A DNA stretch of 64,000 nucleotides, from contig CALSNT010000001.1 in the NCBI GenBank assembly GCA_943787785.1, forward strand, positions 65,423-129,422. Direction: 5' to 3'. Both the position numbers and the translations under genes were made by a program. Positions 10,949 through 43,097 of the stretch are shown one piece after another (the first letter of the stretch is position 1; every line of letters begins with the position of its first letter). The DNA comes from an uncultured Rhodobacteraceae bacterium. Lineage in GTDB: Bacteria; Pseudomonadota; Alphaproteobacteria; Rhodobacterales; Rhodobacteraceae. Under the pieces are notes generated by a model, which worked only from the letters and a program-made list of their open reading frames with translations, was not told where the DNA came from and did no database searches.

Positions 10949-11075
10949 GCAGAATCTGGTTTCCAAACCCACGACAGTCTTATCACGACCCCGGTATTGT
11001 CGGGCAATCTCCGCATTTCCGCCCTAGTTCGCCGTCATACCCGACCAAACGGGGGCGCATCAGCGAGTAGTAACG

Positions 11076-12314: not shown

Positions 12315-14312
12315 GTGGCAGGCTGGCATGACGAACGACGGGAGGACGATTTGACGCCAGACGGGGCACCCCCGCAGTCGATCCCTGCGCTTCTGGCGCT
12401 TAACGCGGACCGCTTCCGCGACAGCCCGGCATTCCGAGAAAAAGAATACGGTATTTGGCAAAGCTGGACATGGGCCGAAGCGGCCGACGAGGTTGAGGCC
12501 ATGGCGCTGGGCCTGCTGGCACTAGGGGCGCAAAACGGTGACCATGTTGCGATCATCGGGCGCAACCGGCCGCAGCTTTACCTGTCGATGATTGCCGCCC
12601 AGAGCGTTGGTGCAGTGCCCGTCCCGCTTTACGCAGATGCGGTGGGGGATGAAGTGGCTTACGTCCTCGATCATTGTGGTGCGCGGTTCATCATCGCCGG
12701 CGATCAGGAACAGGTCGACAAGGTGCTGGAGGTACAGGACCGCCTGACCGGGTTGGAGCGGATCATCTATCTCGACGGGCGGGGTTTGCGGAAATACGAG
12801 CATGGGCATCTGACAAGTTTCGACGGGCTTAAACAATCGGGTCGGGACGCGCGGGATCGGTTGCGCGGCGAACTGGCAACGCGGCGCGCGGCACTGGACT
12901 ATGACGACACCTGCGTGATGCTCTATACATCCGGCACCACCGGGCGTCCCAAGGGCGTGGTGCTGAGCAATCGCAATATCATCGAGACCTCGAAGAACTC
13001 GGCTGAATTCGATCATCTGCGCCCCGACGACGCGATCCTCGCCTATTTGCCGATGGCTTGGGTCGGGGATTTCATCTTCTCGGTCGGGCAGGCGATGTGG
13101 ACGGGGTTCTGCGTCAATTGCCCGGAAAGTCCGGACACGATGATGACCGATCTGCGTGAGATCGGGCCGTCCTATTACTTCGCCCCACCGCGCGTTTTCG
13201 AACAACAGCTGACAAGCATCATGATCCGGATGGAAGATGCAAGTCTCCTGAAACAAAAGATTTTTCATCACTTCATGGCACATGCCAAGAAGGTCGGCCC
13301 GCGTTTGCTGGACGGTCATCAGGTCGGCCTGTGGGACCGGCTGAAATACCGGCTGGGCGAAATTCTGGTCTATGGTCCGCTGAAGAACACGCTGGGGTTC
13401 TCCAAGGTCCGTGTGGGCTATACGGCCGGTGAGGCGATCGGACCGGAGATGTTCGATTTTTACCGCGCGCTGGGGATCAACCTGAAGCAACTCTATGGGC
13501 AAACTGAAGCGTCGGTCTTCATCACCCAGCAGAAAGACAGCGAAGTGCGTGCCGATACCGTGGGCACTGCGACGCCGGGGGTGGAGCTGAAGATCGCTGA
13601 TAGTGGCGAAGTCTTCTATCGCGGTCCTGGCACCTTCGTGGAGTACTACAAGAACGCCGAGTCCACCGCCTCAACCAAGGACGCCGAGGGTTGGGTAGCT
13701 ACTGGTGATGCCGGGTTCATCGAAGAGGGCACCGGGCATCTGAGGATCATCGACCGGGCCAAGGATGTTGGCAAATTGGCCGATGGTAGCCTGTTTGCCC
13801 CGAAGTACGTCGAAAACAAGCTGAAGTTCTTCCCTGACATTCTGGAAGCCGTGGTCTTCGGCAACGGGCGCGACGAGGCCTGCGCCTTCATCAACATCGA
13901 CCTGACCGCCGTCGGCAACTGGGCCGAGCGCAACAACATCGCATACGCCAGCTATCAGGAACTGAGCCAGCACCGCCGAGTACTGGAGATCATCGCCGGT
14001 CACGTCTCAGAGGTGAACGCCAGCCTGGCCGCCGATGAGATGCTCAGCGGGTGCCAGATCGCCCGCTTCCTAGTGTTGCACAAAGAACTGGACGCTGACG
14101 ACGGTGAACTGACGCGAACCCGGAAGGTGAGGCGTGGACTGATCAGCGAGAAGTATGAAGATCTGGTTGGGGCGCTGTACGATGGGTCGCGCGAGGTCAC
14201 GACCGAGACCGAGGTGACTTATGAGGATGGTCGCAAAGGGAGTATCAAGGCGACGTTGGTTGTGGTGGCGGGGGATGTGGTTCCACGTGGGATGAAGGTG
14301 GCGGCGGAATGA
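12315..14312 (+). CDS. AMP-dependent (long-chain) acyl-CoA synthetase, first gene of the ABC operon
   Basis: ANL motifs MLYTSGTTGRPKGV, YGQTE, TGDAG and DRAKDV. The start (GTG 12315 or TTG 12354) is uncertain. Confidence 0.85.
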   Translation: MAGWHDERREDDLTPDGAPPQSIPALLALNADRFRDSPAFREKEYGIWQSWTWAEAADEVEAMALGLLALGAQNGDHVAIIGRNRPQLYLSMIAAQSVGAVPVPLYADAVGDEVAYVLDHCGARFIIAGDQEQVDKVLEVQDRLTGLERIIYLDGRGLRKYEHGHLTSFDGLKQSGRDARDRLRGELATRRAALDYDDTCVMLYTSGTTGRPKGVVLSNRNIIETSKNSAEFDHLRPDDAILAYLPMAWVGDFIFSVGQAMWTGFCVNCPESPDTMMTDLREIGPSYYFAPPRVFEQQLTSIMIRMEDASLLKQKIFHHFMAHAKKVGPRLLDGHQVGLWDRLKYRLGEILVYGPLKNTLGFSKVRVGYTAGEAIGPEMFDFYRALGINLKQLYGQTEASVFITQQKDSEVRADTVGTATPGVELKIADSGEVFYRGPGTFVEYYKNAESTASTKDAEGWVATGDAGFIEEGTGHLRIIDRAKDVGKLADGSLFAPKYVENKLKFFPDILEAVVFGNGRDEACAFINIDLTAVGNWAERNNIAYASYQELSQHRRVLEIIAGHVSEVNASLAADEMLSGCQIARFLVLHKELDADDGELTRTRKVRRGLISEKYEDLVGALYDGSREVTTETEVTYEDGRKGSIKATLVVVAGDVVPRGMKVAAE

Positions 14313-22745: not shown

Positions 22746-23966
22746 ATGCTGACTCCCTACGACGCGCTTGAAATCCGTTCAGCCGATGCGCGTGCCGCAG
22801 ATCTGGCCCGCGCTTTGCCGGCACAGATTAGCCGCGCCGCTGATCTGACTGGGTACCGCGAGGCGCTGGCCGGGATTGACCCGGCAGCAATCAAGACACC
22901 CGCGGACCTCGCCCGATTGCCCGTGTTGCGCAAGGCGGATCTAGGGGCGGCGCAGATGAAGCGGCCTCCTCTGGGGGGCTTTGCGACGCTTGCGCCGGGG
23001 GAATTTCGCCACCTGTTCCAGTCGCCCGGGCCGATCTATGAGCCGGGCAATCACAGCCATGACTGGTGGCGCGTCGGGCGGTTTCTGCATGCCTGCGGGA
23101 TTGGTGCGGGCGACATTGTGCAGAACTGTTTTTCCTATCACCTGACCCCGGCGGGGATGATCTTTGAGTCCGGCGCGCGGGCCGTCGGGGCAGCCGTGAT
23201 CCCGGCGGGGACCGGCCAGACCGAGGCGCAGGTGCAGGCGGCGGCGCAGCTGGGGGCCACGGCCTATGCCGGGACGCCGGATTATCTGAAGGTGATTCTG
23301 GATAAGGCCGATGCGATGGGTGTGGCGCTGGGAATTACGCGCGCTGCGGTAGGTGGCGGGGCATTATTTCCCGCGCTCAGGCAGGCTTACGCCGACCGGG
23401 GCATCGCCTGTTTGCAGAACTATGCCACCGCCGATCTGGGCAACATCGCCTATGAATCCGACGCGGCGGAGGGATTGATCGTCGACGAGGGTGTTGTGGT
23501 CGAAATCGTCACTCCGGGCACTGGCGATCCTGTACCCGACGGTGAGGTGGGTGAAGTCGTGGTTACGACCCTGAACCCCGATTATCCGCTGATCCGGTTG
23601 GCCACGGGAGATTTGAGCGCGATTTTGCCGGGACAAAGCCCATGCGGGCGCACCAATTCGCGCATCAAGGGCTGGATGGGGCGGGCTGATCAGACAACCA
23701 AGGTCAAAGGCATGTTCGTGCGTCCTGAACAGGTGGCCGATCTGGTGGCGCGCCACGACGAGATAGCCCGCGCCCGTGTCGTTGTCGACCGCGACGGAAA
23801 CCAGGATGCCATGACAGTGCGCTTGGAAACAGATGCGCAAGATGCAACGATGTATGAACAAACGGTTCTCGACACGCTCAAATTGCGCGGCAAGGTCGAA
23901 CTGGTGCGGTTGGGGGACCTCCCCCGGGACGGATTAGTGATCGAGGATTTGCGGAGATACGACTGA
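22746..23966 (+). CDS. Phenylacetate-CoA ligase-like (PaaK family) adenylating enzyme
   Basis: 406 aa, with the PaaK-like N-terminal region (LPVLRKADL...) and a C-terminal ...KVKGMFVRPEQV... motif. This family commonly closes this type of ABC operon. Confidence 0.75.
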   Translation: MLTPYDALEIRSADARAADLARALPAQISRAADLTGYREALAGIDPAAIKTPADLARLPVLRKADLGAAQMKRPPLGGFATLAPGEFRHLFQSPGPIYEPGNHSHDWWRVGRFLHACGIGAGDIVQNCFSYHLTPAGMIFESGARAVGAAVIPAGTGQTEAQVQAAAQLGATAYAGTPDYLKVILDKADAMGVALGITRAAVGGGALFPALRQAYADRGIACLQNYATADLGNIAYESDAAEGLIVDEGVVVEIVTPGTGDPVPDGEVGEVVVTTLNPDYPLIRLATGDLSAILPGQSPCGRTNSRIKGWMGRADQTTKVKGMFVRPEQVADLVARHDEIARARVVVDRDGNQDAMTVRLETDAQDATMYEQTVLDTLKLRGKVELVRLGDLPRDGLVIEDLRRYD

Positions 23967-23993: not shown

Positions 23994-25640
23994 ATGACGA
24001 CAAACCCCCTGAAACTGGCCCTTGCGGGCCTGCTGTTGGCGTGTGCCGCGCCGCTTTGGGCTGCCGATATCGCGCTGGTGATCGGAAATGAGGATTATGA
24101 TGAAATACGCGATCTCAGGCGCGGTGATAATGTCGTCGCTGCCGCTTCCGCGCTGGAACGGGCTGGGATCGACGTGGTGGGCGCGCGCAATGCGGACCTT
24201 TCCGAGCTGCAATCCTCTGTTGCACAGTATGCCCAGATGGCACCAAATGCCGACGGATTGATCGTCGTTTTGTCGGGGCGTTTCATGCATTCCGCGACCG
24301 ACACGTTTTTGCTTCCGGTCGATACCGATCGTCCCGGTATTGCACGGCTGAGTTTCAACGCGCTTCCTCTCTCGACGGTACTGGCGGTATTGTCGGCCAG
24401 TCCCGAACGGGCGGTCCTGGTGTTGGTCGGCGATGGAGAGTCGGATCAGATCGGGGCATATCTTCAAGCCGGCATTGGCCAGCCGACGATTCCCGAAGGC
24501 GTCACCATCGTCAGTGCGAATACGCGTGAAGGCGCGCGCTTTATGCGCGATGTCCTGGCCGCACCGGGTGCCTCGATCCCGGACGCAGTGGGTGCCACGC
24601 GTGGCATGCGTGCTGCGGGCTATCTGCCTGATGGCTTTGCGTTCCTTGAGCTTGAGGACGCACCGGAAATCGATGAAGCGGAAGCCGGGTACTGGGAACT
24701 GGTGCAGGAACTGGACACCATCAATTCCTATCGACGGTATCTTGACCGGTACCCGAATGGCCCTCACGCAGACGAAGCTCAGCAAAGGGTAGATGCCTAC
24801 ACAAACGAACCCAATCGCCGCGCACGGCTGGCCGAGGAAGCGCTGAACCTCACACGTGAACAACGCCAGCAGGTGCAACGGGCGTTGACGATCCTCGATT
24901 ATCGTCCACGTGGCATCGACGGGATTTTTGGCCCCGGCACGCGTGGGGCCATAGCTCGCTGGCAGGATGCCAATAATCTGCGCTCAACGACGTATCTGAA
25001 CGCGGCGCAGACCAATCGCCTGCTGCAACAGGGGCAGGCCCGTGCAGAGGAAATGGAAGCCGCTGCCGAAGCGCGTCGGCTGGAGCTTGAACGACAGGAT
25101 CGCGATTATTGGCGGCGCACCGGCGAGAATGGCGGCGAGGGCAACTTCCGCGCCTATCTGGAACGTTATCCGGACGGGCTCTATGCCGAGATCGCGAATG
25201 CGCGGCTTGAGGCGATTGATGAACGCAAACGCAACCGGGCCGAGCGGCGCGACCGCCGCGCCTGGGAGCAGGCGCAGGAGCTGAATTCGCTCGATGGCTA
25301 TCGCGCCTACCTTAGCGCCTTTCCGAACGGCGTGTTTGCCGATGAAGCGCAAGCACGGGTGAGGGTATATGAAGAAGAAGCGGCCAATGCGAATGCCCTT
25401 GCACGCGCCCGTGCCGAAGAAGATGCGCTGGGTCTCAACCCCGTTACCCGTCAGTTGGTCGAACGGCGGCTGAATGCGCTGGGGCTGAAACCGGGTCGGG
25501 TGGACGGACAATTCAACGAACGCACCCGGCGGGCGATTCGTCGTTTTCAGGATCGGCGTAACCTTCAGGTGACGGGTTACCTGAATGAGCCGACCATGGT
25601 GCGATTGCTGGCCGGTGGGATCATCTCGCTGTTCGAATAG
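23994..25640 (+). CDS. Secreted caspase-fold (C14-like) protein lacking the catalytic dyad, with 3 helical repeats and 2 peptidoglycan-binding (PG_binding_1) domains
   Basis: Signal peptide, then DIALVIGNEDYD. SGRF replaces SGHG and LVGDG replaces LDAC(R). Three repeats: YLDRYPNGPHADEAQQRV, YLERYPDGLYAEIANARL, YLSAFPNGVFADEAQARV. PG-binding motifs: DGIFGPGTRGAIARWQ and DGQFNERTRRAIRRFQ. Confidence 0.7.
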   Translation: MTTNPLKLALAGLLLACAAPLWAADIALVIGNEDYDEIRDLRRGDNVVAAASALERAGIDVVGARNADLSELQSSVAQYAQMAPNADGLIVVLSGRFMHSATDTFLLPVDTDRPGIARLSFNALPLSTVLAVLSASPERAVLVLVGDGESDQIGAYLQAGIGQPTIPEGVTIVSANTREGARFMRDVLAAPGASIPDAVGATRGMRAAGYLPDGFAFLELEDAPEIDEAEAGYWELVQELDTINSYRRYLDRYPNGPHADEAQQRVDAYTNEPNRRARLAEEALNLTREQRQQVQRALTILDYRPRGIDGIFGPGTRGAIARWQDANNLRSTTYLNAAQTNRLLQQGQARAEEMEAAAEARRLELERQDRDYWRRTGENGGEGNFRAYLERYPDGLYAEIANARLEAIDERKRNRAERRDRRAWEQAQELNSLDGYRAYLSAFPNGVFADEAQARVRVYEEEAANANALARARAEEDALGLNPVTRQLVERRLNALGLKPGRVDGQFNERTRRAIRRFQDRRNLQVTGYLNEPTMVRLLAGGIISLFE

Positions 25641-33929: not shown

Positions 33930-35238
33930 TCAGACGAAGCGATTGACGTAGTTCTCCAGAATTTCCTGCCGACCCGAGCGGGGCTGTGGATCGACGCCGC
34001 CACCGTGGACACGCGCATGGATCGCTGCCAGATCGCTGCCTAGCATGGCCTGTGCTTCGGGCGTTTCCCACCCAGCGTAGCGGTCAGCCAAGGCATCCTC
34101 CAGCCCACCGTCCTCGATCATCGCGGCGGCGGCCTTGAGGCCCCGCGCACAGATGTCCATGCCGCCGACGTGGGCGGCGATCAGATCGACCGGGTCCAGC
34201 GACTGACGGCGCAGCTTGGCGTCGAAGTTGGTGCCGCCGGTGCCCAGCCCCCCCGCCTTCAGGATGTGGTAGTAGGCCAGCGCGACCTCGGGTGTGTTGT
34301 TCGGAAACTGGTCGGTGTCCCAGCCCGACTGGTAATCGTTGCGGTTCATGTCGATGGACCCCAGCACGCCGAGGGCGGCGGCGGTGGCGATCTCATGCTC
34401 GAAGCTGTGACCGGCCAGAATGCCGTGACCCTGTTCGAGGTTCAGCTTCACCTCTTTTTCCAGCCCGTACTTCTGCAGGAAGCCGAAGCAGGTCGCGGCG
34501 TCGAAATCATACTGGTGTTTCGAGGGTTCCTGCGGTTTCGGTTCCACCAGGATCGTGCCCTTGAAGCCGATCTTGTGCTTGTAGTCGACGACCATCGTTC
34601 AGGAACCGGCCCATGTGGTCCAGCTCGGCCCCCACGTTGGTGTTCAGCAGTGTCTCGTACCCTTCACGCCCGCCCCAGAGGACGTAGTTCTCGCCGCCAA
34701 GTTTCTGCGTCGCGTCCATGCAGGACTTCACCGTCGCGGCGGCATAGGCGAAGACGTCGGGATCGGGGTTGGTCGATGCCCCGCTCATCCAACGGCGGTG
34801 AGTGAACATATTGGCGGTGCCCCAGAGCAGCTTGACGCCGGTGGCCTCCATTTTGATGCCGAAAAGGTCGGTGATTTCGTCCAGCCGGGCTTCGCTTTCG
34901 GCAAAGCTGTCGCCTTCGGGGCGCACGTCGAGGTCGTGGAAGCAGAAGTAGGGCGCGCCGAGAATTTCGAACAGCTCAAAGGCGACGTCGGCCTTCAGGC
35001 GGGCGGCTCTCCATCGTGTCGCCGAACCAGGGGCGCTCGAACGTTTGCACCGCCGAATGGGTCGCCGCCGGGCCACGCGAAAGCTGTGCCAATAGGCGAC
35101 CGCAAAGCGGAGGTGGTCGGCCTGGGATTTGCCCTGCACCTCGGCTCCGGCGTCGTAGTGGCGAAACGCCAGTGGATTGGCACTTTCGGGCCCTTCGTAT
35201 TTGATCGAGGCAATGTCGTCGAAAAATCCGGTGGGCAT
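33930..35238 (-). pseudogene. xylA: Xylose isomerase, about 4 single-base insertions
   Basis: [29 protein letters not shown]...AYWHSF | [10 protein letters not shown] | [14 protein letters not shown] | [12 protein letters not shown]...GGREGY...RFLN | [24 protein letters not shown]...WDTDQFP. Breaks lie near 35083, 35050, 35008 and 34597. Confidence 0.85.
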
Positions 35239-35408
35239 TGTCGGCACTCCGTCAGCGGCAGAATCATTTGGATCTGATTGTATATCACGATTAATTCGGC
35301 GCTCGAAATTAAATAGCGAATCCTGTGACGGTCCCGGTGCCGGTTGATGCGTTGCGGAACTGCTTTTAGGGTCTGCCGCGTAAAGAAATCTCGAGCGGGC
35401 GGGCGAGC

Positions 35409-36371
35409 GTGGCAGTTGAACGAAGTGCACGGCGAAATCTGGACGATCTGTTTTGCCGGCTGGCTGATCCGGCAGCTCCGTCAGCGGACGTTGCAGATGA
35501 GCAAATTCCTGATCTCGCGCACATGGCGTCCGATCACAATGTTTCGACGATCCTTTACCGCAAGATCGGGGCTGCGCGGTTGGCAACGTTGGCCCCACAA
35601 CTGGTGGCTGAGGCCGAGGGGCTGACGGCAATCACGTTGCGGCTGGAGTCGTTGCTGCCCCGGCTGCGCGGTGCCTTTGCCGATCATGGCCTTGATCCCA
35701 TCATTGTTAAGGGCCCAGTTTTTGCGGAGCGCCTGTACTCTGATCCCGCAGATCGTCCGTTCACCGACATCGACATCGTGGCGCAGCCAGATGATTTTGC
35801 CGCCATTGGCACAATTCTTGGCGAAATTGGCCTGCATCAGTACCTGAAAGCGAGTTTTGATCGTTCGGAGGCCAATCAGGAACAGAAATGGATCAGCGAT
35901 GCTGACCCCAACTTGTTGATCGAATTGCATGGCGACCTTGTGCATTATCCGGGCTTGCGCCGTAGGGTTCGTTTGGGCCACGCAGAACTGACGGCCCTCG
36001 GCCCTGATGCCACAACCACGCTGTTTCTGACGGCAGTGGCGCATGGTGCACTCGGGCATAAGTTTCATACCCTCCGGCTGGTTCTGGACGTGCTGCAGGC
36101 ATTTCGAGCGTTATCCTTGTCCGAGCGTTCTACCCTGTTGCATCGAGCCAGAGCGGCACGTTTGCATTTGGAAACGCTTCAATCCCTTCAGCTTATCGGA
36201 ACGATGTTTGGCGATAATGATGCGCTCGAACTGGTGCGGTCAGCACGTGGCGGTGGCATCGCGCGATCCTGCATGATTGCCGGGCGGGACGTGCTGTCAG
36301 CACCCGATGCGACGTCGTCAAAGTTACGGCGCCATATGTTTCGCCTCTTCCAGCGCTATTCGGCCCGTTGA
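35409..36371 (+). CDS. Nucleotidyltransferase-family protein (PF14907/NTP_transf_5-like)
   Basis: 320 aa, GTG start. [27 protein letters not shown] fits the KG...R...DIDhhh signature of the uncharacterised nucleotidyltransferase family that accompanies HprK-like kinase/PqqD cassettes. Confidence 0.65.
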
Positions 36372-37358
36372 ATGGTTGCTGCGCTGAGTGCGGTTGTTTT
36401 TTCTGCGGGATTTGTCGACTCCGCGCCGGCATTGGCCGGTTGGCTCGATGCGGGGCACCGGATTTCGGCGGCGGTGTTTCCTGCGACTGCAGAACGCCGT
36501 ATAAAACGTTCCATTCGGTATGATCATCCCGGCTCGATTTGGTCTAGCGGCGGCATACTCCGACGGGGTGCCCCTGAAGCCGAGGTCATTTACCAAGGCT
36601 TAAATTCCGACACGGCGCCGATTGAGGATATGGTGCGGCGTCTGCAGCCCGATTTGATCATTTCGTCGCACTGGATGCGCCGGTTGTCCGGTCGGCTTTT
36701 GTCGCTTGCACGGCTGGGAGGCGTCAATGTGCACCCGGCGTTGCTACCGTATTACCGCGGGCCGGACCCTTTGAATGGGATGATCATGGCCGGGGACCTT
36801 CGCAAGGCTGGCGGCGTAACCTTGCACCAAATGACCGAGCGTTTCGATGAAGGGCCGATCATTGCGCAGATTCCGCTTCGGGAATGCCATTGGACGGATA
36901 GTCTGCAAATGCGCCGAGCGCTTGGAAGTGCTCAATACCAACTGGTCCGCAATGATCTGCACCGGTGGCTTTCTGGTACGATTACGACGTGTCGGCAAAC
37001 GGGCGGGAACTGGCATGACAAGAGCGTCCGGTCGAGCCGGATCGAAGCCACTTGGCCAGCTGAGAGGTTGCTTCCGATTTCACGCCTGCTGCTTCAGAAT
37101 TCGCGGCGATTGCGGGCTCTTTCTACACCAACGGGCCCGATTCCGTTGCCCCAGGTCCTTCGTGTCATTGGTCCGCCGACGGGTGCACCGATCGCGACAG
37201 GGCGAAAATGGTTAGAATTTGACTGCAAAGACGCACGGATCAGGGCGATAGGACGTCGTCGGATTTCTATCGCACTTGAACGCCAGAGAATAAAACGCAC
37301 CCTGAGACGCAGCCTACCGCTGGAGGGACTCGAAAGTTCAACCGATGCCGGACCCTGA
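36372..37358 (+). CDS. Formyltransferase-family protein (Fmt/PurN-like catalytic domain)
   Basis: The ATG directly abuts the upstream stop. GGVNVHPALLPYYRGPDPL matches the N-x-H...SLLPxxRG motif, and GVTLHQMTERFDEGPIIAQ supplies the conserved Asp. Confidence 0.7.
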   Translation: MVAALSAVVFSAGFVDSAPALAGWLDAGHRISAAVFPATAERRIKRSIRYDHPGSIWSSGGILRRGAPEAEVIYQGLNSDTAPIEDMVRRLQPDLIISSHWMRRLSGRLLSLARLGGVNVHPALLPYYRGPDPLNGMIMAGDLRKAGGVTLHQMTERFDEGPIIAQIPLRECHWTDSLQMRRALGSAQYQLVRNDLHRWLSGTITTCRQTGGNWHDKSVRSSRIEATWPAERLLPISRLLLQNSRRLRALSTPTGPIPLPQVLRVIGPPTGAPIATGRKWLEFDCKDARIRAIGRRRISIALERQRIKRTLRRSLPLEGLESSTDAGP

Positions 37359-38363
37359 CGGCGTCAGTGTTGCCTGGGCCAGCGTTTCGCCAAATACCTT
37401 GGCCGCTGACACCAATCCGGCCTGGCCTTCAGGCACAAGCAATTCATAGGCGGGAGTTTTACGGATCAACTCGGTTAAGCAGTCGAGCGCGGCCAGATCA
37501 CGGGCGCCAAGCCCCCCCGCGCTGTGGCGCACGTTGTCTGAAACAAGGCGCGCCAACGCCTCGGCGGCGGGGAGCGCGCGCACTTCTGCTTCGGAACCCG
37601 TCCCGCGCGCCAGCGAGAAGACAGCACCTACGGGCCGTATGACATGCGGAGATATCGGCATGTGTTCGGCCAATAACTCAAGCGGCACCGCGCGCTCTTC
37701 ACGTTTTGACCAATCTGCCGTCCCTGCTAGCCAAGGCAGCATTTCGACGGTTTTGCGGTGGACATTCGGATCGCGGGCAAGTCCCCAGACAAGAAATCCG
37801 TTTTCGTCGGGGTTTGCAGACAGCACGGCTGCATCGTCATTCGCCATGGCGTAACCCGCATGCGCAAGTGCCAGCGTTGTCGTCGTCTTTCCGGTGCCGC
37901 TGGGCGCGAAGACCAACCCGAAAGATCGTCCGTCGCGATCCGCCAGGCAGGCTGCGTGAACCAGCGTCTGCCCTGTGGCTGCAATTGCGGCGTCCATTGC
38001 GTGGACGGACAGATCGAAGCTCTCGGACAGTTTCGCGTTCTCAGCCAAGATCAAGTCGGCTGTTCGCATCGCAGTATCCAGCCGCAGAGAGGCCAGATCG
38101 GGGCGTACGTACCACATCACGGAGCCAGACTCGTGAACGGTGACCGATTTGCCGTCCTGGCCGGAGCCTTCGTGCAGCAGGGTTGCATCGGCGTCAGGCC
38201 CGATTGGCACTCCACGCCAAAGTGAAAGCGTCATCGCCACTGGCAGCTCTTTTTCGCGATTGTGGCGCAGAAGCAGGCCGCCAAATATGGTCGTAGCCCA
38301 GTCTGGCGGGCCAGAGACGTCCAACGTGGCGCTCAAAAGGTCGTAGCGGGCATTGGGGGTCAT
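37338..38363 (-). CDS. HPr kinase-related (HprK-like) P-loop kinase
   Basis: P-loop FAPSGTGKTTTTLALA inside a protein of about 340 aa. Start MTPNARYD forms an ATGA overlap with the B2 stop. Its 3-prime end overlaps the convergent formyltransferase gene by 21 nt. Confidence 0.7.
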   Translation of the reverse strand: MTPNARYDLLSATLDVSGPPDWATTIFGGLLLRHNREKELPVAMTLSLWRGVPIGPDADATLLHEGSGQDGKSVTVHESGSVMWYVRPDLASLRLDTAMRTADLILAENAKLSESFDLSVHAMDAAIAATGQTLVHAACLADRDGRSFGLVFAPSGTGKTTTTLALAHAGYAMANDDAAVLSANPDENGFLVWGLARDPNVHRKTVEMLPWLAGTADWSKREERAVPLELLAEHMPISPHVIRPVGAVFSLARGTGSEAEVRALPAAEALARLVSDNVRHSAGGLGARDLAALDCLTELIRKTPAYELLVPEGQAGLVSAAKVFGETLAQATLTPSGSGIG

Positions 38364-38815
38364 GCAGTCACGGGTCCGGGAAATTCCATCAACTCGGTCA
38401 TGCCGTCCTCCCGATCGCTGATCACCGGGGTGCCATCGAGGCAGACCCAGCAATGGGCGTCCAGCTTCTTTGAGGTCAGGGATTTCTCGACAACGGCAAA
38501 TTTAAGAACCGGGTCAAACCCGGCTTTGCGCAGGTATTTGAAACCAAGCAATCCTCTGCGCATGCAGCGGCGATGGCGCATCAGGATCGGATGCTTCACC
38601 GAGCGGCGCACCCGGCGCAGAATGAAATCCGTGCCAACGCCGCCCCAACGCGGATCGGCAGGCACGTCGGCCCATGCCAGTGCAATGCTCAGGTCCGTTT
38701 CACCAATCTGATAGGGCAGTTTGCGCGCATCGAGCCAGATGTCCCAGCCCAATGACATGCGTCGGGCAACGGGCAGTGTCGGCGATTTTTCAGGCACCCG
38801 CGTCGACGACGACAC
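38360..38815 (-). CDS. Lasso-peptide B2-type transglutaminase-like cysteine protease (PF13471-like)
   Basis: RRCMRRGLLGFKYLRKAGFDPVLKFAV...LDAHCWVCLDGTPVISD has Cys, His and Asp in the spacing typical of McjB-C/B2 proteases. An alternative start is at 38758. Confidence 0.7.
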   Translation of the reverse strand: MSSSTRVPEKSPTLPVARRMSLGWDIWLDARKLPYQIGETDLSIALAWADVPADPRWGGVGTDFILRRVRRSVKHPILMRHRRCMRRGLLGFKYLRKAGFDPVLKFAVVEKSLTSKKLDAHCWVCLDGTPVISDREDGMTELMEFPGPVTA

Positions 38816-39077
38816 CGTCGTTAGCCAGCGGTGAAATCATCTCGATCAAGTCCGGGATCAGCACATCCGGCGTTACTTCAAAATCGTCGGTCATGCGGGT
38901 GGCAATGTCAGACAGGCTCGATGAACCGTCCAGTCGCCCCAGAAAATCCATCGCGGTCTCGTTGCATGTGTAGATCTCGCCTGTCGTTGTCATCAGCACA
39001 ACGCCGGTTTCGCCAACGGCGCGCATGGTCGCACTGGGCGAAAGGGTCAGGACCGAGGTGTCGGCGATCTGGGTCAT
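38790..39077 (-). CDS. PqqD-family protein (RiPP recognition element / lasso B1-like)
   Basis: 95 aa: MTQIADTSVLTLSPSATMRAVGETGVVLMTTTGEIYTCNETAMDFLGRLDGSSSLSDIATRMTDDFEVTPDVLIPDLIEMISPLANDGVV. Typical PqqD topology (beta strands, then L-N-x-T/A-x-x-x-W/L helices). Good RBS (aaggaga). Confidence 0.75.
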   Translation of the reverse strand: MTQIADTSVLTLSPSATMRAVGETGVVLMTTTGEIYTCNETAMDFLGRLDGSSSLSDIATRMTDDFEVTPDVLIPDLIEMISPLANDGVVVDAGA

Positions 39078-39091
39078 GGCGGCTCTCCTTG

Positions 39092-39157
39092 TCAGCCGGT
39101 GTGTACCCAAGCTGCTGGCGTCTGGCCAGTCCGAAACGCACCGCATAAGGTAGCCAT
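39092..39157 (-). CDS. Speculative 21-aa ORF in the precursor-peptide position upstream of the PqqD gene
   Basis: atg gct acc tta tgc ggt gcg ttt cgg act ggc cag acg cca gca gct tgg gta cac acc ggc tga = MATLCGAFRTGQTPAAWVHTG. The stop lies 14 nt before the PqqD ATG. Weak RBS (gaaag), and only 11 of 20 third-codon positions are G or C. Confidence 0.2.
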   Translation of the reverse strand: MATLCGAFRTGQTPAAWVHTG

Positions 39158-39181
39158 TGGCTTTCGGAAACGCAGGACAGG

Positions 39182-40597
39182 TTGCCTTTGGCGTGGGATC
39201 AAAACATTGAAGCCTTGTTGGGCGTGGGTTGCCGGTTGAGCGATCATCGCAGGGGGCAGGAACTGGACCGCGACGCGTTGCTGACGCGATCTGCGAAACG
39301 CGCTGCGTGGTTGCTCGAACAAAGATGCGCCCGCGGTGATCGGATTGTGATTGCGGCGCGCGACCCATTGCAGATTGTCGTCGATCTGTTCGCCTGCTGG
39401 CAAGCCGGATTGGTCGCGGTTCTGGTGAATCCGGCGATTGTTGCGGGCGAGCGCCAGCGCGTGACGCAAGCAACCAACGCGAAGCTGTGGGTGGACGAGC
39501 AAACAGCGGAGTCCGAAACTACAGAAATAGCACTTGAGCCTTTGCATCTAAATGAACCTGCGCTGATCTTGATGACATCTGGTACAACGGGTGTGCCAAA
39601 GGGGGTCACTTTGACTCTCGAAGCGCTTCTTGCACGGGTGGGCAGCAACCGGGCGCATATCGGAGACGCGGCATTGGTGCGGACTCTGGCAGTGCTGCCG
39701 GTTTTTTTCGGGCACGGGTTGATCGGGACGATCCTGACGCCTCTGGCCGCCGGAGGGCATGTGACGCTGTGGCCGTCGCCCACGCTGGGCGAGTTGGCGC
39801 GCCTAGGCACGGTCATGGACGAGACCAAGACGACGTTCCTTAGCGGCGTTCCCAGCTTCTGGCGCATGGCTGAACGTCTGTCGCCGCCTCCAAAGACGCC
39901 GCCAACGCAGGTGCATGTCGGATCCGAGGCGCTGAGTTTGGAGTTGTGGCAGGGCATCGCCGACTGGGCCGGGACGCACAATGTGCTGAACATGTACGGG
40001 CTGACTGAGACGGCAAACTGGGTCGGCGGAGCAAGGTTGGATCAGACGGACGGTTCGACGGGGTTTGTCGGTAAGCCGTGGTTGGGAGATATCGCAGTGC
40101 TGGATGATGTCGGATCGGTGCAGAGCCTCGGAACCGGTGAGGTACTTCTACGCAGCGACGCAGTTATGACCGGCATCTGGGACGACCCGCCGGCGAGCAA
40201 GGCGGCGTTCCACGACGGTTGGCTCAGGACAGGTGATATCGGTCAGTTGGACGCGCGGGGGCTCACCCTAAAAGGGCGCCTCAAGTCCCAGATCAATCGC
40301 GCAGGTGTCAAGATATTGGCCGAAGAGGTTGAACAGATGCTGGAACGCCATCCGGACGTGGCCGAGGCGGCTGGTTATTCATTGCCCGACCAGGTGTCCG
40401 GCGAAGCCGTCGGCGCGGCGGTCGTTCTGCAGCCGGGGGCGATGATCACCCCTGAGAGCCTGCGCGACTGGTGCCGGGATGAGGTTCGCGCTGAAGCCGT
40501 GCCAACGCGGATTGCCATTCTGGACGCGCTTGTGCGAAATGACCGGGGTAAACTCATGCGCAATGCGACCCGGGATCTGGTGACCGGCTCCGGCTAA
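39182..40597 (+). CDS. ANL-superfamily adenylating enzyme (acyl/aryl-AMP ligase)
   Basis: LILMTSGTTGVPKGV, YGLTET, WLRTGDIG, GRLKSQINRAGVKI and a C-terminal catalytic Lys context NDRGKLMR. TTG start uncertain. Divergent from the PqqD operon. Confidence 0.8.
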   Translation: MPLAWDQNIEALLGVGCRLSDHRRGQELDRDALLTRSAKRAAWLLEQRCARGDRIVIAARDPLQIVVDLFACWQAGLVAVLVNPAIVAGERQRVTQATNAKLWVDEQTAESETTEIALEPLHLNEPALILMTSGTTGVPKGVTLTLEALLARVGSNRAHIGDAALVRTLAVLPVFFGHGLIGTILTPLAAGGHVTLWPSPTLGELARLGTVMDETKTTFLSGVPSFWRMAERLSPPPKTPPTQVHVGSEALSLELWQGIADWAGTHNVLNMYGLTETANWVGGARLDQTDGSTGFVGKPWLGDIAVLDDVGSVQSLGTGEVLLRSDAVMTGIWDDPPASKAAFHDGWLRTGDIGQLDARGLTLKGRLKSQINRAGVKILAEEVEQMLERHPDVAEAAGYSLPDQVSGEAVGAAVVLQPGAMITPESLRDWCRDEVRAEAVPTRIAILDALVRNDRGKLMRNATRDLVTGSG

Positions 40598-40642
40598 GCG
40601 CAGGCCGAGACGCAAAAATCTGAAAGCACGACATCTGACCCA

Positions 40643-41227
40643 ATGAGCTGGATAAACAAACCCCGAGATCCGCATTTTGATCAGGTCCTGCAGACCGACA
40701 GATTCGAATTGCGCCCGCTGACCCTATGGCGAACCTGGCGTCTCGGCGTTGCCAAATGGCTGGACGATCCGGAACTCGCCAATGCAATAACTGCGGCCCC
40801 CTTGCGCGGGTCGCAATGGCGGTTGTATCGGCTGATGTCGAAACCCAATGGTCGCACGCGATTCACCTATGGTATCTTTCCGCGAGGCTCGGACCAGCCG
40901 ATTGGAGTCGAATCCGTCCAATTGCGCAACTATCGCACGGCCAGTCTGGCGGTTCTTATTCATGACCGCGAATGGTGGGGAAAAGGGGTGGTGTCCGAGG
41001 TGCGCGGGCGTGTGATCGATCATTTGTTCGACAGCCCGCGCGTCGGTCGCATTCAGGGGCAGGTCGAAGGGCGCAATTTCGCTTCGATCTTCAACTATCG
41101 CAATCTGGGGTTTGCCCACGTGGGTACGCTGCACCAATGCACCTGGAACACTGCTGAGGATGTCCCGGCAGATCAGTTGATGTTCGAAATGATGGAAGAC
41201 GACTGGCGCAATCGGAGTGAAGCATGA
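40643..41227 (+). CDS. GNAT-family N-acyltransferase (RimJ/RimL-like)
   Basis: 194 aa. RFELRPLT..., then the acyl-CoA-binding-type segment WWGKGVVSEVRGRVIDHLF and NFASIFNYRNLGFAHVG. Confidence 0.7.
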   Translation: MSWINKPRDPHFDQVLQTDRFELRPLTLWRTWRLGVAKWLDDPELANAITAAPLRGSQWRLYRLMSKPNGRTRFTYGIFPRGSDQPIGVESVQLRNYRTASLAVLIHDREWWGKGVVSEVRGRVIDHLFDSPRVGRIQGQVEGRNFASIFNYRNLGFAHVGTLHQCTWNTAEDVPADQLMFEMMEDDWRNRSEA

Positions 41228-41439
41228 CCGCCGAAGTTGCACGGGCGCTGGTCGCCAAGGCGCTGGGCCGCGACACGATAGAGGCTGGCGATGGCCTGGC
41301 GACTTTGGCCGAATGGGACAGTCTGGGTCATATGCACATCGTTCTGGCAATTGAGGCGCAGCGGGGGGAGCGACTGACACCGGAGCAGATCGTCTCGATC
41401 GCGACAGTTGCGGACGTAGTAGCCTTGCTGGATGGCTGA
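41224..41439 (+). CDS. Acyl carrier protein-like (phosphopantetheine attachment site)
   Basis: 71 aa with LAEWDSLGHMHIVLAIE (DSL Ser motif). ATGA overlap with the GNAT gene. Confidence 0.7.
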   Translation: MTAEVARALVAKALGRDTIEAGDGLATLAEWDSLGHMHIVLAIEAQRGERLTPEQIVSIATVADVVALLDG

Positions 41440-41525
41440 TTTGGTTGACGCTGCTGGACACTGCCGGCGTGCTGAGCCATGGATTGGTGAGCCTTATACG
41501 AAATGTTTAGTAGGTGATCTGGCCC

Positions 41526-43097
41526 ATGACTGCTGACAACGATCCGCTGGATATTTTTATCATTGGTGGCGGTATCAATGGCTGCGGCATCGCGCGGGAC
41601 GCGGCGGGGCGCGGCCTGAGTGTGGCGCTGGCTGAAATGAACGACCTCGCATCGGCAACCTCATCGGCTTCGACCAAGTTGTTCCACGGCGGTCTGCGGT
41701 ATCTTGAATACCTCGAATTCAGGCTGGTGCGTGAGGCGTTGATCGAGCGGGAAAATCTGCTGAGTGCGATGCCGCATATCTCGTGGCCGATGCGCTTTGT
41801 GCTGCCTTATCACAAGGACATGCGGTTCGAGGGCGAAACGCCTGTCTCGCGCATCCTGTCCTTCGTGATGCCGTGGATGAAAGGGCGGCGGCCTGCCGCG
41901 ATGATCCGGGCAGGTCTGTTCATGTACGACCATCTAGGTGGGAGGAAAATCCTTCCGCCAACGAAGACGCTGGATCTGCGTACCGATCCGGCGGGCGGGC
42001 CGTTGCAGGATCGGTTTCTCAAGGCCTACGAATATTCCGACTGCTGGATACAGGACTCGCGGCTGGTGTCGCTCAACGCGCGCGATGCGGCGGAGCGGGG
42101 TGCCCGGGTGATGACGCGGACCAAGGTGACCTCGGCCGAGCGGGTGGGCGATCTGTGGCAGGTAACGTTGCAGCGCGAGGATGGCGGCACCGAGACGCTG
42201 AGTGCGCGCGCGCTGGTCAATGCGGGTGGCCCGTGGGTCGAAGATGTGATCCGCAACACGGTGCGCATCAACTCGACCGAAGGCGTGCGGTTGGTGCGGG
42301 GCAGTCACATCGTGGTGCCGCGGCTTTACGATCATGATCGGTGCTATTTCTTTCAGGGCACCGACGGACGGATCATTTTTGCAATTCCATATGAGGATGA
42401 TTTCACGCTGATCGGCACGACCGATCAGGATCAGGAGGGGCCGCCGGGGCCGGTGGAGATCTCCGACGGCGAGATCAAATACCTTTGTGAATTTGTCTCG
42501 GGATATTTGAAACCGCCTGTCACGCCGGAGGATGTGGTCTGGACCTATTCCGGGGTTCGGCCGCTCTATGATGACGGCGCGAAATCCGCGACGGCGGCGA
42601 CGCGGGATTACGTGTTGTCGCTAAACACGGACGGGCCCGCGCCGTTGCTGAATGTTTTTGGCGGAAAGATAACGACGTATCGCAAACTCGCCGAGCACGC
42701 TTTGGAGAAGCTGGCGGACCCTTTGGGATTTTCTGATGCGGGCTGGACGGCGCGGGTGCCTCTGCCGGGCGGCGACTTCCCGGTCGATGGCGTGGCGGCG
42801 CTGCGTTCGAAACTGCTGGCCGACTATCCGTTTCTGGGCGTGGAGCGCGTCAACCGCCTGATCCGGGTTTATGGCACCGATGCTTGGCCGATGCTGGGCG
42901 AAGCGTCCTCGGACGCCGATCTGGGGCGCGATTTTGGCGGGACCATCACCGAGGCAGAAGTGCGCTGGCTGATGGCGCACGAGTTCGCCAAGGGTGCTGA
43001 CGACGTGGTCTGGCGGCGCACCAAGCGGGGCTTGCGGATGAGCGCCGCGCAGATTGCAGCGCTTGATGAATGGATGGTTGAGGCTCGGCAGAGCTGA
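41526..43097 (+). CDS. glpD: Aerobic glycerol-3-phosphate dehydrogenase (FAD)
   Basis: DIFIIGGGINGCGIARDAAGRG dinucleotide fold, SSASTKLFHGGLRYL, about 523 aa, followed by glpK. Confidence 0.9.
   Translation: MTADNDPLDIFIIGGGINGCGIARDAAGRGLSVALAEMNDLASATSSASTKLFHGGLRYLEYLEFRLVREALIERENLLSAMPHISWPMRFVLPYHKDMRFEGETPVSRILSFVMPWMKGRRPAAMIRAGLFMYDHLGGRKILPPTKTLDLRTDPAGGPLQDRFLKAYEYSDCWIQDSRLVSLNARDAAERGARVMTRTKVTSAERVGDLWQVTLQREDGGTETLSARALVNAGGPWVEDVIRNTVRINSTEGVRLVRGSHIVVPRLYDHDRCYFFQGTDGRIIFAIPYEDDFTLIGTTDQDQEGPPGPVEISDGEIKYLCEFVSGYLKPPVTPEDVVWTYSGVRPLYDDGAKSATAATRDYVLSLNTDGPAPLLNVFGGKITTYRKLAEHALEKLADPLGFSDAGWTARVPLPGGDFPVDGVAALRSKLLADYPFLGVERVNRLIRVYGTDAWPMLGEASSDADLGRDFGGTITEAEVRWLMAHEFAKGADDVVWRRTKRGLRMSAAQIAALDEWMVEARQS

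What the first reader, a model, noticed from the sequence alone, without database searches (positions are those of the whole stretch)
39182..41439. Adenylating ligase-GNAT-ACP operon divergent from the RRE operon: logic resembles acyl-ACP-dependent GNAT lipidation of RiPPs
**Seen**
- The ligase has all core ANL motifs including the C-terminal Lys.
- The ACP has the DSL serine.
- The GNAT is RimJ/L-like and translationally coupled to the ACP.
- The operon shares a roughly 100-bp divergent promoter region with the PqqD operon.

**Established**
- Fatty-acyl-AMP ligase plus ACP pairs load acyl groups.
- In the goadvionin-type PK/FA-RiPP hybrid lipopeptides, a GNAT transfers an ACP-bound acyl chain onto the N-terminus of a leader-cleaved ribosomal peptide.

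**Inference**
- B1/B2 would expose a new N-terminus, which the GNAT would then acylate with the ligase/ACP-activated acid.
- To my knowledge, a lasso-type B1/B2 feeding such a module has not been described.
Basis: partly seen in the sequence, partly recalled or inferred. Interest (0 to 1): 0.65.

Follow-up and report, generated by a model that had tools for sequence, protein, structure and literature searches.

The report
Acyl-transfer module in lasso-like RiPP cluster
The ligase, acyltransferase and carrier-protein genes are real and belong to a largely undescribed family of alphaproteobacterial gene clusters that process small ribosomal peptides with lasso-type leader machinery but no ring-forming enzyme, so they probably attach an acyl group to a short linear peptide.

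Summary
Window 39182-41439 encodes an ANL ligase, a RimJ/L-type GNAT and a 71-aa carrier protein. They lie 104 bp divergent from a PqqD(B1)-B2-kinase operon, with NTP_transf_5 and formyltransferase genes beside it.

The adjacency is not coincidental:
- Loci were fetched by GNAT homology alone. In 13 of 19 independent lineages with at least 5 kb of flank, the triad sits beside PqqD/B2/HprK-like/NTP_transf_5, in at least seven gene orders.
- Relatives carry tandem small ORFs with a lasso-type leader (MKKxYxKPxLxKRxxLSxVTA) and short variable cores. In some loci these follow the ACP directly, on the same strand.

The family is not a lasso pathway. There is no cyclase, and cores have a median of 13 aa. 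Asp/Glu at positions 7-9 occurs in 17 of 105 cores, while Ser/Thr at positions 4-6 occurs in 92 of 105. The nearest described system is the Bacillota linear polyphosphorylated peptides.

The triad is an accessory module. Triad-less clusters exist, and six lineages have the triad without RRE genes.

N-terminal acylation is plausible but untested. A fatty acyl group is not indicated, since the ligase lacks the FAAL insertion and resembles oxalate, malonate and medium-chain CoA ligases.

No precursor gene was found in this window.

The parts
35523..36371 (+). NTP_transf_5 nucleotidyltransferase-like gene (282 aa as called; the longer ORF starts at 35409)
   Evidence: Matches PF14907 at 1e-24. In 8 or more related lineages it lies directly downstream of the ACP.
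36372..37358 (+). Formyltransferase-like gene (328 aa; Fmt/ArnA-type N-terminal domain)
   Evidence: Matches PF00551 at 9e-20 and TIGR00460 at 1.7e-20, below the curated cut-off. It co-occurs with the set in L011, L022, L024 and L059.
37338..38363 (-). HprK/PEPCK-fold P-loop kinase-like gene (341 aa), with Walker A APSGTGKTTT
   Evidence: Weak hits to TIGR04352 and TIGR04355. Relatives hit Hpr_kinase_C and ScmC below threshold. The AF2 model has pLDDT 92.9, and its best PDB fold matches are ATP-PEPCK (E 5e-9).
38360..38758 (-). Lasso-type leader peptidase B2 (transglutaminase-like, 132 aa)
   Evidence: NF033537 lasso_biosyn_B2 scores 41.6 bits against a cut-off of 33, and PF13471 also matches. 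The Cys (RRCMRRG) and His (AHCWV) are conserved across 11 lineages.
38790..39077 (-). PqqD-family RRE (B1, 95 aa)
   Evidence: Matches PF05402 at 1.3e-10. It is 93% identical to its counterpart in the 81% lineage, the most conserved gene of the island (dN/dS 0.045).
39078..39181 (.). 104-bp divergent intergenic region between the PqqD and ligase genes
   Evidence: Read directly from the sequence. No consensus sigma-70 promoter lies within it.
39182..40597 (+). ANL adenylating ligase (469-471 aa), acyl-CoA-ligase type, without a FAAL insertion
   Evidence: It is 45-51% identical in every related locus.
40643..41227 (+). GNAT (Acetyltransf_3), predicted to depend on a carrier protein
   Evidence: Relatives include ANL-GNAT and GNAT-carrier-protein fusions.
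41224..41439 (+). Stand-alone carrier protein (71 aa) with Ser33 in WDSL

Best explanation
The three genes are an accessory tailoring module of an eight-gene RiPP-type island (35523-41439). The island belongs to an alphaproteobacterial family that descends from lasso-peptide machinery but makes short linear peptides.

Proposed pathway:
1. A precursor of about 30-45 aa carries the leader MK(K/R)xYx(K/R)PxLxK(R/S)xxLSx(V/I)TA. PqqD (B1) binds it through the YxxPxL motif.
2. The HprK/PEPCK-fold kinase modifies the conserved Ser/Thr at core position 4-6. NTP_transf_5 then elaborates that site.
3. B2 cuts after the Thr-Ala at positions -2 and -1.
4. In parallel, the ANL ligase adenylates a carboxylic acid that is not an alpha-amino acid and probably not a long fatty acid. 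It loads the acid on the phosphopantetheine arm of the 71-aa carrier protein.
5. The RimJ/L-type GNAT transfers the acyl group to the peptide. The most likely acceptor is the alpha-amine freed by B2, the only amine common to all cores.

What is shown:
- the gene identities;
- the conserved linkage;
- the precursor family in relatives;
- the absence of a cyclase.

What is inferred:
- every chemical step;
- the order of steps;
- the acyl group;
- the acceptor.

In this genome the precursor gene must lie outside the 64-kb window.

The confidence of 0.55 is for the whole statement. By layer it is roughly 0.85 that the triad belongs to this RiPP-type cluster family, 0.6 that it acylates the peptide through the carrier protein, and 0.4 that the acceptor is the new N-terminus.
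For: **Linkage**
- Loci were fetched by GNAT similarity only. Of 19 lineages with at least 5 kb of flank, 13 have two or more of PqqD/B2/HprK-like/NTP_transf_5 next to the triad.
- At least seven different gene orders and orientations are seen.
- Triad-only lineages are nested within linked ones on a ligase tree.

**Precursors**
- 47 small ORFs in 20 loci share the leader and have variable cores.
- In L037 they follow the ACP on the same strand (10984-11163 and 11632-11769).
- They occur in arrays of up to 10 copies (L014, L017, L056).
- 87 protein clusters match in the public collection. NCBI names some of them 'putative RiPP precursor'.
- The cultured Starkeya sp. ORNL1 carries the full set.

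**Cores**
- Among 105 unique cores, the median length is 13 aa.
- Ser/Thr sits at positions 4-6 in 92.
- Asp/Glu sits at positions 7-9 in 17.
- Lys is present in only 53.

**Module integrity**
- The ACP Ser is invariant.
- ANL-GNAT and GNAT-carrier-protein fusions exist in the family.
- The ATGA overlap couples GNAT and ACP.
- dN/dS is 0.05-0.19.

**Precedents**
- In LPPs, an HprK-like kinase polyphosphorylates core Ser3 of a linear peptide with a YxxP leader (PMC13381572).
- SbzL/SbzG/SbzI and GdvG are carrier-protein-dependent GNAT systems (PMC11685415).
Against: - No precursor-like ORF was found in the 64-kb window, in its 81% relatives or in L020.
- Six of 19 lineages have the triad with no RRE genes or precursors within 10 kb.
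- Triad-less clusters with the same leader exist (L060, L061, L059). The triad is therefore not needed for the basic pathway.
- L023 pairs a related GNAT and ACP with an Asn-synthase-type gene and a lasso-like core. There the N-terminus would be consumed.
- L013 and L015/L029 lack a detectable B2.
- The GNAT fold match is generic: SpeG, RimL, RimJ and the lasso acetyltransferase 9iy3 all have TM about 0.7. It does not identify the acceptor.
- The kinase assignment rests on fold and sub-threshold hits only.
- Nothing identifies the acid.
Confidence: 0.55

Rival explanations
1. Same cluster membership, but a different acceptor or role. The GNAT acylates an amine on whatever the kinase and NTP_transf_5 build on the conserved core Ser/Thr, or a Lys side chain, or the Ser hydroxyl. 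Alternatively, the triad makes the unusual substrate that NTP_transf_5 needs.
For: - NTP_transf_5 lies directly downstream of the ACP in the same operon in L013, L014, L015, L016, L017, L020, L029 and L033.
- In LPPs the homologous LppN was inactive without an unknown partner (PMC13381572).
- L023 combines a related GNAT and ACP with a cyclase-like gene that would use up the N-terminus.
- The lasso-peptide acetyltransferase 9iy3 is among the fold matches.
Against: - Lys is absent from 52 of 105 cores.
- In the window, NTP_transf_5 is not in the triad operon.
- In L022, no NTP_transf_5 was detected within the 20-kb locus.
- GNATs of the RimJ/L type are N-acyltransferases (established knowledge).
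Confidence: 0.28
2. The adjacency is coincidental. The triad is a stand-alone module for acylating a lipid, sugar or polysaccharide and has nothing to do with the RRE operon.
For: - Two triad-only synteny groups exist. One lies next to PMM and ManC/GlcNAc-2-epimerase genes (L007, L009, L021). The other lies among housekeeping genes (L031, L043, L046, L050).
- The triad-less L059 cluster sits in a polysaccharide locus.
Against: - 13 of 19 lineages are linked despite shuffled gene orders.
- Precursor genes lie inside the triad operon in the L037 lineage.
- Triad-only clades are derived on the ligase tree.
- No sugar or lipid genes are conserved with the triad across loci.
Confidence: 0.06
3. This is an ordinary lasso-peptide pathway whose cyclase and precursor are encoded elsewhere. 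The triad would be a secondary decoration of a lasso peptide.
For: - B1 and B2 are lasso-type; NF033537 scores above its cut-off.
- The leader has YxxPxL and Thr at -2.
- L023 shows that such a combination can exist.
Against: - No Asn_synthase gene was seen in the window's island, in the called genes within about 10 kb on either side in other assemblies of the same organism (L001-L006), or among the ten largest other ORFs tested. The remaining window ORFs were not scanned.
- No Asn_synthase ORF of 420 aa or more was found in 8 of the 11 related loci tested, and none was called within 10 kb in Starkeya.
- The two AsnB-like genes, in L013 and L016, keep strong glutaminase domains. Their cores have no Asp/Glu acceptor.
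- Only 17 of 105 cores have Asp/Glu at positions 7-9.
- Many cores are 7-12 aa, too short to thread.
Confidence: 0.04
4. In this particular genome the island is an orphan remnant with no substrate.
For: - No precursor was found in 64 kb or in the relatives' flanks.
- No exporter gene lies in the island.
Against: - All eight genes are intact. dN/dS is 0.05-0.19 against an 81% relative, and PqqD is the most constrained gene.
- Orphan precursor genes far from any enzyme exist in Mesorhizobium. Encoding in trans therefore occurs in this family.
Confidence: 0.07

Closest known systems
Linear polyphosphorylated peptides (LPP) of Bacillota (Popov et al., Nat Commun 2026, PMC13381572)
   Same: - Descended from lasso machinery but without a cyclase.
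- A discrete PqqD-type RRE binds a YxxP leader.
- An HprK-like kinase and an NTP transferase are present.
- The modified Ser lies close to the new N-terminus (Ser3 in LPP; Ser/Thr at positions 4-6 here).
- Multiple precursors with variable cores.
   Different: - The leader peptidase is B2 (transglutaminase-like) here, not a SipW-type signal peptidase.
- Alphaproteobacteria, not Bacillota.
- Cores are much shorter (median 13 aa against 45 aa).
- An ANL-GNAT-ACP module, and often a formyltransferase, are added.
- No exporter lies in the window's island.
- No chemistry has been shown for this family.
Phosphorylated lasso peptides (paeninodin/pseudomycoidin type)
   Same: - B1 and B2.
- HprK-like kinase.
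- NTP_transf_5-type enzyme.
- YxxP/Thr(-2) leader logic.
   Different: - No lasso cyclase and no acceptor Asp/Glu, so the cores cannot be threaded.
- The conserved Ser is near the N-terminus of the core rather than at the C-terminus.
Goadvionin GdvG, a carrier-protein-dependent GNAT that N-acylates a RiPP (Kozakai et al. 2020, cited in PMC11685415)
   Same: A GNAT takes an acyl group from a carrier protein and puts it on a ribosomal peptide after leader removal.
   Different: - In goadvionin the acyl chain is built by a PKS/FAS on the ACP and the peptide is an avionin-containing lanthipeptide-like core.
- Here a single ANL ligase loads the ACP.
- The GNAT is not detectably related beyond the fold.
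SbzL/SbzG/SbzI of altemicidin biosynthesis (PMC11685415)
   Same: The same three-part logic: a stand-alone adenylating enzyme loads a small acid on a carrier protein, and a GNAT transfers it to an amine.
   Different: The acceptor there is a small-molecule dinucleotide, not a peptide. There is no RiPP context.
Selidamides (Hubrich et al. 2022, PMC8784127) and lasso-peptide acetyltransferases (PDB 9iy3)
   Same: GNAT-catalysed acylation of ribosomal peptides.
   Different: - Those enzymes act on Lys or Orn side chains, and they lack the dedicated adenylating-ligase and carrier-protein pair seen here.
- Half of the cores here have no Lys.

Membership tests
Lasso peptide biosynthetic cluster | Discrete or fused RRE (B1, PqqD family) | tested here: met
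   PF05402 at 1.3e-10 and NF033530 at 1.1e-4, below its cut-off.
Lasso peptide biosynthetic cluster | Leader peptidase B2 (transglutaminase-like Cys protease) | tested here: met
   NF033537 scores 41.6 bits against a cut-off of 33. The Cys and His are conserved.
Lasso peptide biosynthetic cluster | Lasso cyclase (Asn-synthetase homologue, protein C) | tested here: not met
   - None in the island or in the called genes within about 10 kb on either side in L001-L006.
- None among the window's ten largest other ORFs. The remaining window ORFs were not scanned.
- None in Starkeya.
- Only 3 of 82 large ORFs from 11 related loci are Asn_synthase. Two of those are AsnB-like and accompany cores without an acceptor residue.
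Lasso peptide biosynthetic cluster | Precursor with a YxxPxL leader, Thr at -2, and a core with Asp/Glu at position 7-9 | tested here: not met
   The leader features are present in relatives' precursors. Asp/Glu at 7-9 occurs in only 17 of 105 cores, and the median core is 13 aa. No precursor was found in the window.
Linear polyphosphorylated peptides (LPP) | SipW-type signal peptidase I as leader peptidase | tested here: not met
   No such gene appears in the island or among the called genes of related loci. B2 is present instead.
Linear polyphosphorylated peptides (LPP) | Discrete RRE + HprK-like kinase + NTP transferase, no cyclase | tested here: met
   The kinase is assigned at fold level only.
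Linear polyphosphorylated peptides (LPP) | Polyphosphorylation of a core Ser near the N-terminus | not testable with these tools
   Only the conserved Ser/Thr at core positions 4-6 (92 of 105 cores) is seen.
Carrier-protein-dependent GNAT acylation module (SbzLGI / GdvG type) | GNAT fold with a pantetheine-pyrophosphate loop | tested here: met
   PF13302 matches. The WWGKG loop is nearly invariant. The AF2 model has pLDDT 81.6 and matches GNAT structures at E 1e-11.
Carrier-protein-dependent GNAT acylation module (SbzLGI / GdvG type) | Dedicated carrier protein with a modifiable Ser, genetically coupled to the GNAT | tested here: met
   The Ser is invariant in 26 lineages. GNAT and ACP overlap as ATGA. 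GNAT-PP-binding fusions exist, P0058 and P0106.
Carrier-protein-dependent GNAT acylation module (SbzLGI / GdvG type) | Transfer from acyl-S-carrier protein rather than acyl-CoA | not testable with these tools
   Inferred from gene coupling only.
Fatty acyl-AMP ligase (FAAL) | FAAL-specific insertion of about 20 aa that blocks the CoA-thioester conformation | tested here: not met
   Query residues 119-459 (341 aa) align as a single stretch to residues 159-504 (346 aa) of oxalate-CoA ligase 5ie0. No FAAL structure is among the 46 PDB hits at E below 1e-20. Total length is 469 aa.
ANL adenylating enzymes | Core motifs A3, A5, A7, A8 and the A10 lysine | tested here: met
   The A4 region is FFGHG, with no Asp as in amino-acid-activating A domains (read from the sequence).

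The most novel reading that the evidence does not exclude
This would be an undescribed RiPP class in which the lasso macrolactam step has been replaced by an intermolecular reaction. B1/B2 expose the N-terminus of a 7-25-residue core. Instead of a cyclase joining that amine to an internal Asp/Glu, an ANL ligase, a carrier protein and a GNAT cap it with an exogenous acid. A PEPCK/HprK-fold kinase and NTP_transf_5 decorate an invariant Ser/Thr a few residues away. The products would be libraries of N-acylated, phospho-decorated mini-peptides, with up to 10 or more precursor genes per cluster, in Rhodobacteraceae, Mesorhizobium, Starkeya and related genera.
Probability: 0.35. Interest if true: 0.8.

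Novelty: new variant of a known kind. Interest (0 to 1): 0.68.

Why it matters
- **A new route to acylated ribosomal peptides.** If the model is right, it needs only one ligase, one small carrier protein and one GNAT. That is attractive for engineering N-capped peptides.
- **Modularity of lasso-type machinery.** B1/B2 leader processing would feed chemistry other than lasso cyclisation. This would extend the recently described linear polyphosphorylated peptides from Bacillota to Alphaproteobacteria, with a different peptidase.
- **A lead on NTP_transf_5.** The function of these enzymes is unknown, and LppN was inactive without a missing partner. The ligase-GNAT-ACP genes share an operon with NTP_transf_5 in most relatives.
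- **Testability.** Cultured strains with complete genomes (Starkeya sp. ORNL1, Mesorhizobium spp.) carry the cluster or its precursors, so the question can be tested directly.

Tried and rejected
- **Precursor search in the window.** I used profile HMMs of full precursors and of leaders alone on six-frame translations, relaxed regexes, and a search for small ORFs conserved between the window and its 81% relative. Nothing was found.
- **Promoter and terminator scan of 38900-41700.** No consensus sigma-70 site lies in the divergent gap, so the scan was uninformative.
- **Substrate of the ligase.** PDB neighbours are mixed (oxalate, malonate, fatty-acid and succinylbenzoate ligases, and luciferases) and do not fix the acid. 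I did not attempt pocket modelling.
- **Acceptor of the GNAT.** The fold search is generic.
- **NCBIfam models.** The HPr-related kinase A and B models give only weak hits, so the window's kinase is not a member of those families. No NCBIfam model names the precursors. There are only sub-threshold hits to lasso leader models NF033528 and NF033534.
- **Literature.** Seven full-text searches found no description of B1/B2 together with ANL-GNAT-ACP, and RRE-Finder does not mention it. The library holds open-access papers only, so absence is not proof.
- **Other RNA features.** The Rfam and tRNA scans found only tRNA-Val.
Full report
**What is in the window**

The window has about 60% GC. The same protein set occurs on metagenome contigs of up to 518 kb, and the closest named relative is a Rhodobacteraceae MAG. 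Between xylA and glpD-glpK lies an eight-gene island:

| Gene | Coordinates | Strand |
|---|---|---|
| NTP_transf_5 | 35523-36371 | + |
| Formyltransferase-like | 36372-37358 | + |
| P-loop kinase-like | 37338-38363 | - |
| Lasso-type B2 peptidase | 38360-38758 | - |
| PqqD/B1 | 38790-39077 | - |
| ANL ligase | 39182-40597 | + |
| GNAT | 40643-41227 | + |
| Carrier protein | 41224-41439 | + |

- The ANL core motifs, including the A10 lysine, are present.
- The carrier protein has a WDSL serine.
- The GNAT is Acetyltransf_3, the RimJ/L type.
- The GNAT stop and ACP start overlap as ATGA.
- The gap to the PqqD start is 104 bp.

The split xylA gene in the window is an assembly indel. It is intact in other assemblies of the same organism.

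**Is the adjacency meaningful?**

The GNAT family is small. The word-indexed search found seven clusters. An exhaustive profile search found about 210 representatives at E below 1e-10.

I fetched loci by GNAT similarity alone, so the sample is not biased toward RRE genes. This gave 12 species-level genome loci and 31 metagenome loci. tblastn and iterated profile searches with the window's eight proteins gave these results:
- The loci fall into 34 GNAT lineages, of which 19 have at least 5 kb on both sides.
- Of those 19, 13 carry at least two of PqqD, B2, kinase and NTP_transf_5 beside the triad. Four further short contigs show partial sets.
- The gene order differs between lineages, so this is linkage maintained through rearrangement rather than inherited synteny. 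Examples:
  - PqqD-B2-kinase / precursors / ligase-GNAT-ACP-NTP5.
  - ligase-GNAT-ACP-NTP5 / kinase-B2-PqqD.
  - NTP5 / kinase-B2-PqqD / ligase-GNAT-ACP-precursors.
  - kinase-NTP5-ligase-GNAT-ACP.
  - A form with two GNATs.
- Six lineages have the triad alone, in two main synteny groups plus L049. On a ligase tree they form three clades nested among linked lineages. This suggests secondary unlinking.
- All eight window genes show purifying selection against the 81%-identity lineage.

**Precursor peptides**

Clustering all ORFs of 30 aa or more across loci revealed a family of tandem small ORFs. Profile searches extended it to 47 ORFs in 20 loci.
- **Leader.** The consensus is M-K-(K/R)-x-Y-x-(K/R/A)-P-x-(L/I/V/F)-x-K-(R/S/H)-x-x-L-(S/A)-x-(V/I)-T-A. 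This contains the [Y/W]xxPx[L/V/I/F/A] motif that discrete lasso RREs recognise (PMC13381572). It also has the penultimate Thr described as a critical recognition element in lasso leaders (abstract of PMC10368454).
- **Position.** The ORFs lie either divergent from the ligase or directly downstream of the ACP on the same strand (L037 lineage).
- **Public collection.** A profile search of the protein collection found 87 clusters. NCBI names several 'putative RiPP precursor' in Mesorhizobium and Starkeya.
- **A cultured example.** Starkeya sp. ORNL1 has the complete set with ten or more precursors sharing the core GANFSGKK....
- **Orphan precursors.** A Mesorhizobium precursor is an orphan gene far from any enzyme.
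- **This window.** No precursor was found in the window, in its 81% relatives or in L020. If this island is active, its substrate is encoded elsewhere.

**Not a lasso pathway**

- No Asn-synthase-type gene is in the island, in the called genes within about 10 kb on either side in other assemblies of the organism, or among the ten largest other ORFs tested in the window.
- In eleven related loci only three large ORFs are Asn_synthase.
  - Two (L013, L016) are AsnB-like with strong glutaminase domains. They are paired with a Mur-ligase-like gene and an ABC exporter, and the cores in those loci have no Asp/Glu.
  - The third (L023, a gammaproteobacterium) looks like a true lasso cluster with a G1...E8 core.
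- Among 105 unique cores the median length is 13 aa (range 7-47). Asp/Glu at positions 7-9 occurs in 17. Ser/Thr at positions 4-6 occurs in 92, usually after a hydrophobic residue and often before Pro or Gly.

**Nearest described system**

[quoted passage not shown] The present family shares the RRE, kinase and NTP-transferase logic and the Ser near the new N-terminus. It differs in using B2, in having much shorter cores, and in often adding the ligase-GNAT-ACP module.

The kinase assignment is at fold level:
- Sub-threshold hits to Hpr_kinase_C, ScmC and TIGR04352.
- A confident AF2 model (pLDDT 92.9) whose best PDB matches are ATP-dependent PEPCKs. By established knowledge, this is the fold class that includes the HPr kinase catalytic domain.

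**The triad is accessory**

Homologues of the kinase lead to clusters without the triad:
- PqqD-B2-kinase-NTP5 alone (L061).
- The same set with a TauD dioxygenase and five precursors of the same leader type (L060).
- The set with a formyltransferase inside a polysaccharide locus (L059).

The constant core is therefore RRE, B2 and kinase, usually with NTP5. The triad, formyltransferase, TauD and the AsnB/Mur-ligase pair are interchangeable tailoring modules.

**How the triad probably works**

- **Ligase.** Its nearest solved relatives are oxalate-CoA ligase (5.4e-48), FadD13, MenE and malonyl-CoA ligases. It aligns colinearly with them, so there is no FAAL insertion. Its A4 region (FFGHG) lacks the Asp of amino-acid-activating domains (read from the sequence). 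This points to a simple carboxylic acid and gives no support for a long fatty acid.
- **Carrier protein.** The Ser is invariant.
- **Fusions.** ANL-GNAT and GNAT-carrier-protein fusions occur in the GNAT family. They support the sequence of ligase, carrier protein and GNAT, as in SbzL/SbzG/SbzI and GdvG (PMC11685415).
- **Acceptor.** The GNAT model is a generic GNAT whose matches include RimL, RimJ and the lasso acetyltransferase 9iy3. It does not name the acceptor. Lys is missing from half the cores. The only nucleophiles common to all are the alpha-amine created by B2 and the conserved Ser/Thr. With an N-acyltransferase fold, the alpha-amine is the best guess. This is an inference.
- **Main rival.** The tight operonic link of the ACP to NTP_transf_5 in most relatives supports the alternative that the acyl group goes onto whatever is built on the Ser.

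**Novelty**

Seven full-text searches and a check of RRE-Finder found no description of B1/B2 with an ANL-GNAT-ACP module. The library holds open-access papers only. NCBI's 'putative RiPP precursor' names show that the peptides have been noticed by annotators.

I rate this a new variant of known kinds, combining a RiPP with lasso-derived processing and carrier-protein-dependent GNAT acylation. It has good prospects for experimental test in cultured strains.

Noticed in passing
window 33930-35631 (minus strand): xylA is split into two overlapping ORFs (221 and 374 aa). It is a single 434-aa gene in other assemblies of the same organism (L001, L003). L004 and L006 instead show frameshifts in the formyltransferase and kinase genes. 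These look like long-read assembly indels, not pseudogenes.
   Followed up: partly
L023 1921-10740 (Granulosicoccaceae MAG): A related GNAT and ACP sit beside a lasso-like set: kinase, sulfotransferase, PqqD, Asn_synthase, ATP-grasp and ANL ligase. A candidate precursor reads ...KEYNKPELQVLGSDVAD/GKTGLNSERPMNPEGGTKGPS, whose core has G1 and E8. This may be an acyl-decorated true lasso peptide.
   Followed up: partly
L013 1415-6636; L016 3133-6330: A Mur-ligase-like gene and an AsnB-like gene (GATase plus Asn_synthase) lie divergent from PqqD in two lineages, whose cores are Gly-rich and lack Asp/Glu. L013 also has an ABC exporter gene here. The role of these genes is unknown.
   Followed up: partly
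window 36372-37358; L022 7130-8104; L024 12963-13910; L059 6121-7158: An Fmt/ArnA-type formyltransferase recurs in this cluster family, including one cluster without the triad. It could be an alternative or additional N-capping enzyme, or it could act on a sugar nucleotide. Its role is unexplained.
   Followed up: no
L013 6777-8114; L029 180-1502: The Phreatobacter and Rubellimicrobium-like lineages have PqqD followed almost directly by the kinase. No B2 was detected, although precursors and the triad are present.
   Followed up: no
L057/L058 10001-10105 (Mesorhizobium): A precursor gene of this family (MKRTYEKPVLVKRDRLSAVTAVIVVSLVNGAASQ) stands alone, with no biosynthetic gene within 10 kb.
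   Followed up: partly
proteins P0068, P0058, P0106, P0030; L024 9935-11255: Domain fusions occur in the GNAT family: ANL-GNAT (676 aa), GNAT-carrier protein (281 and 308 aa) and tandem GNAT-GNAT. L024 has two adjacent GNAT genes.
   Followed up: partly
window 12315-14309 and 22746-23963: Two further AMP-binding proteins lie elsewhere in the window, among transporter and primary-metabolism genes. They are unrelated to the island.
   Followed up: no
window 23994-25637: An ORF combines a caspase-like (Peptidase_C14) domain with C-terminal peptidoglycan-binding domains.
   Followed up: no
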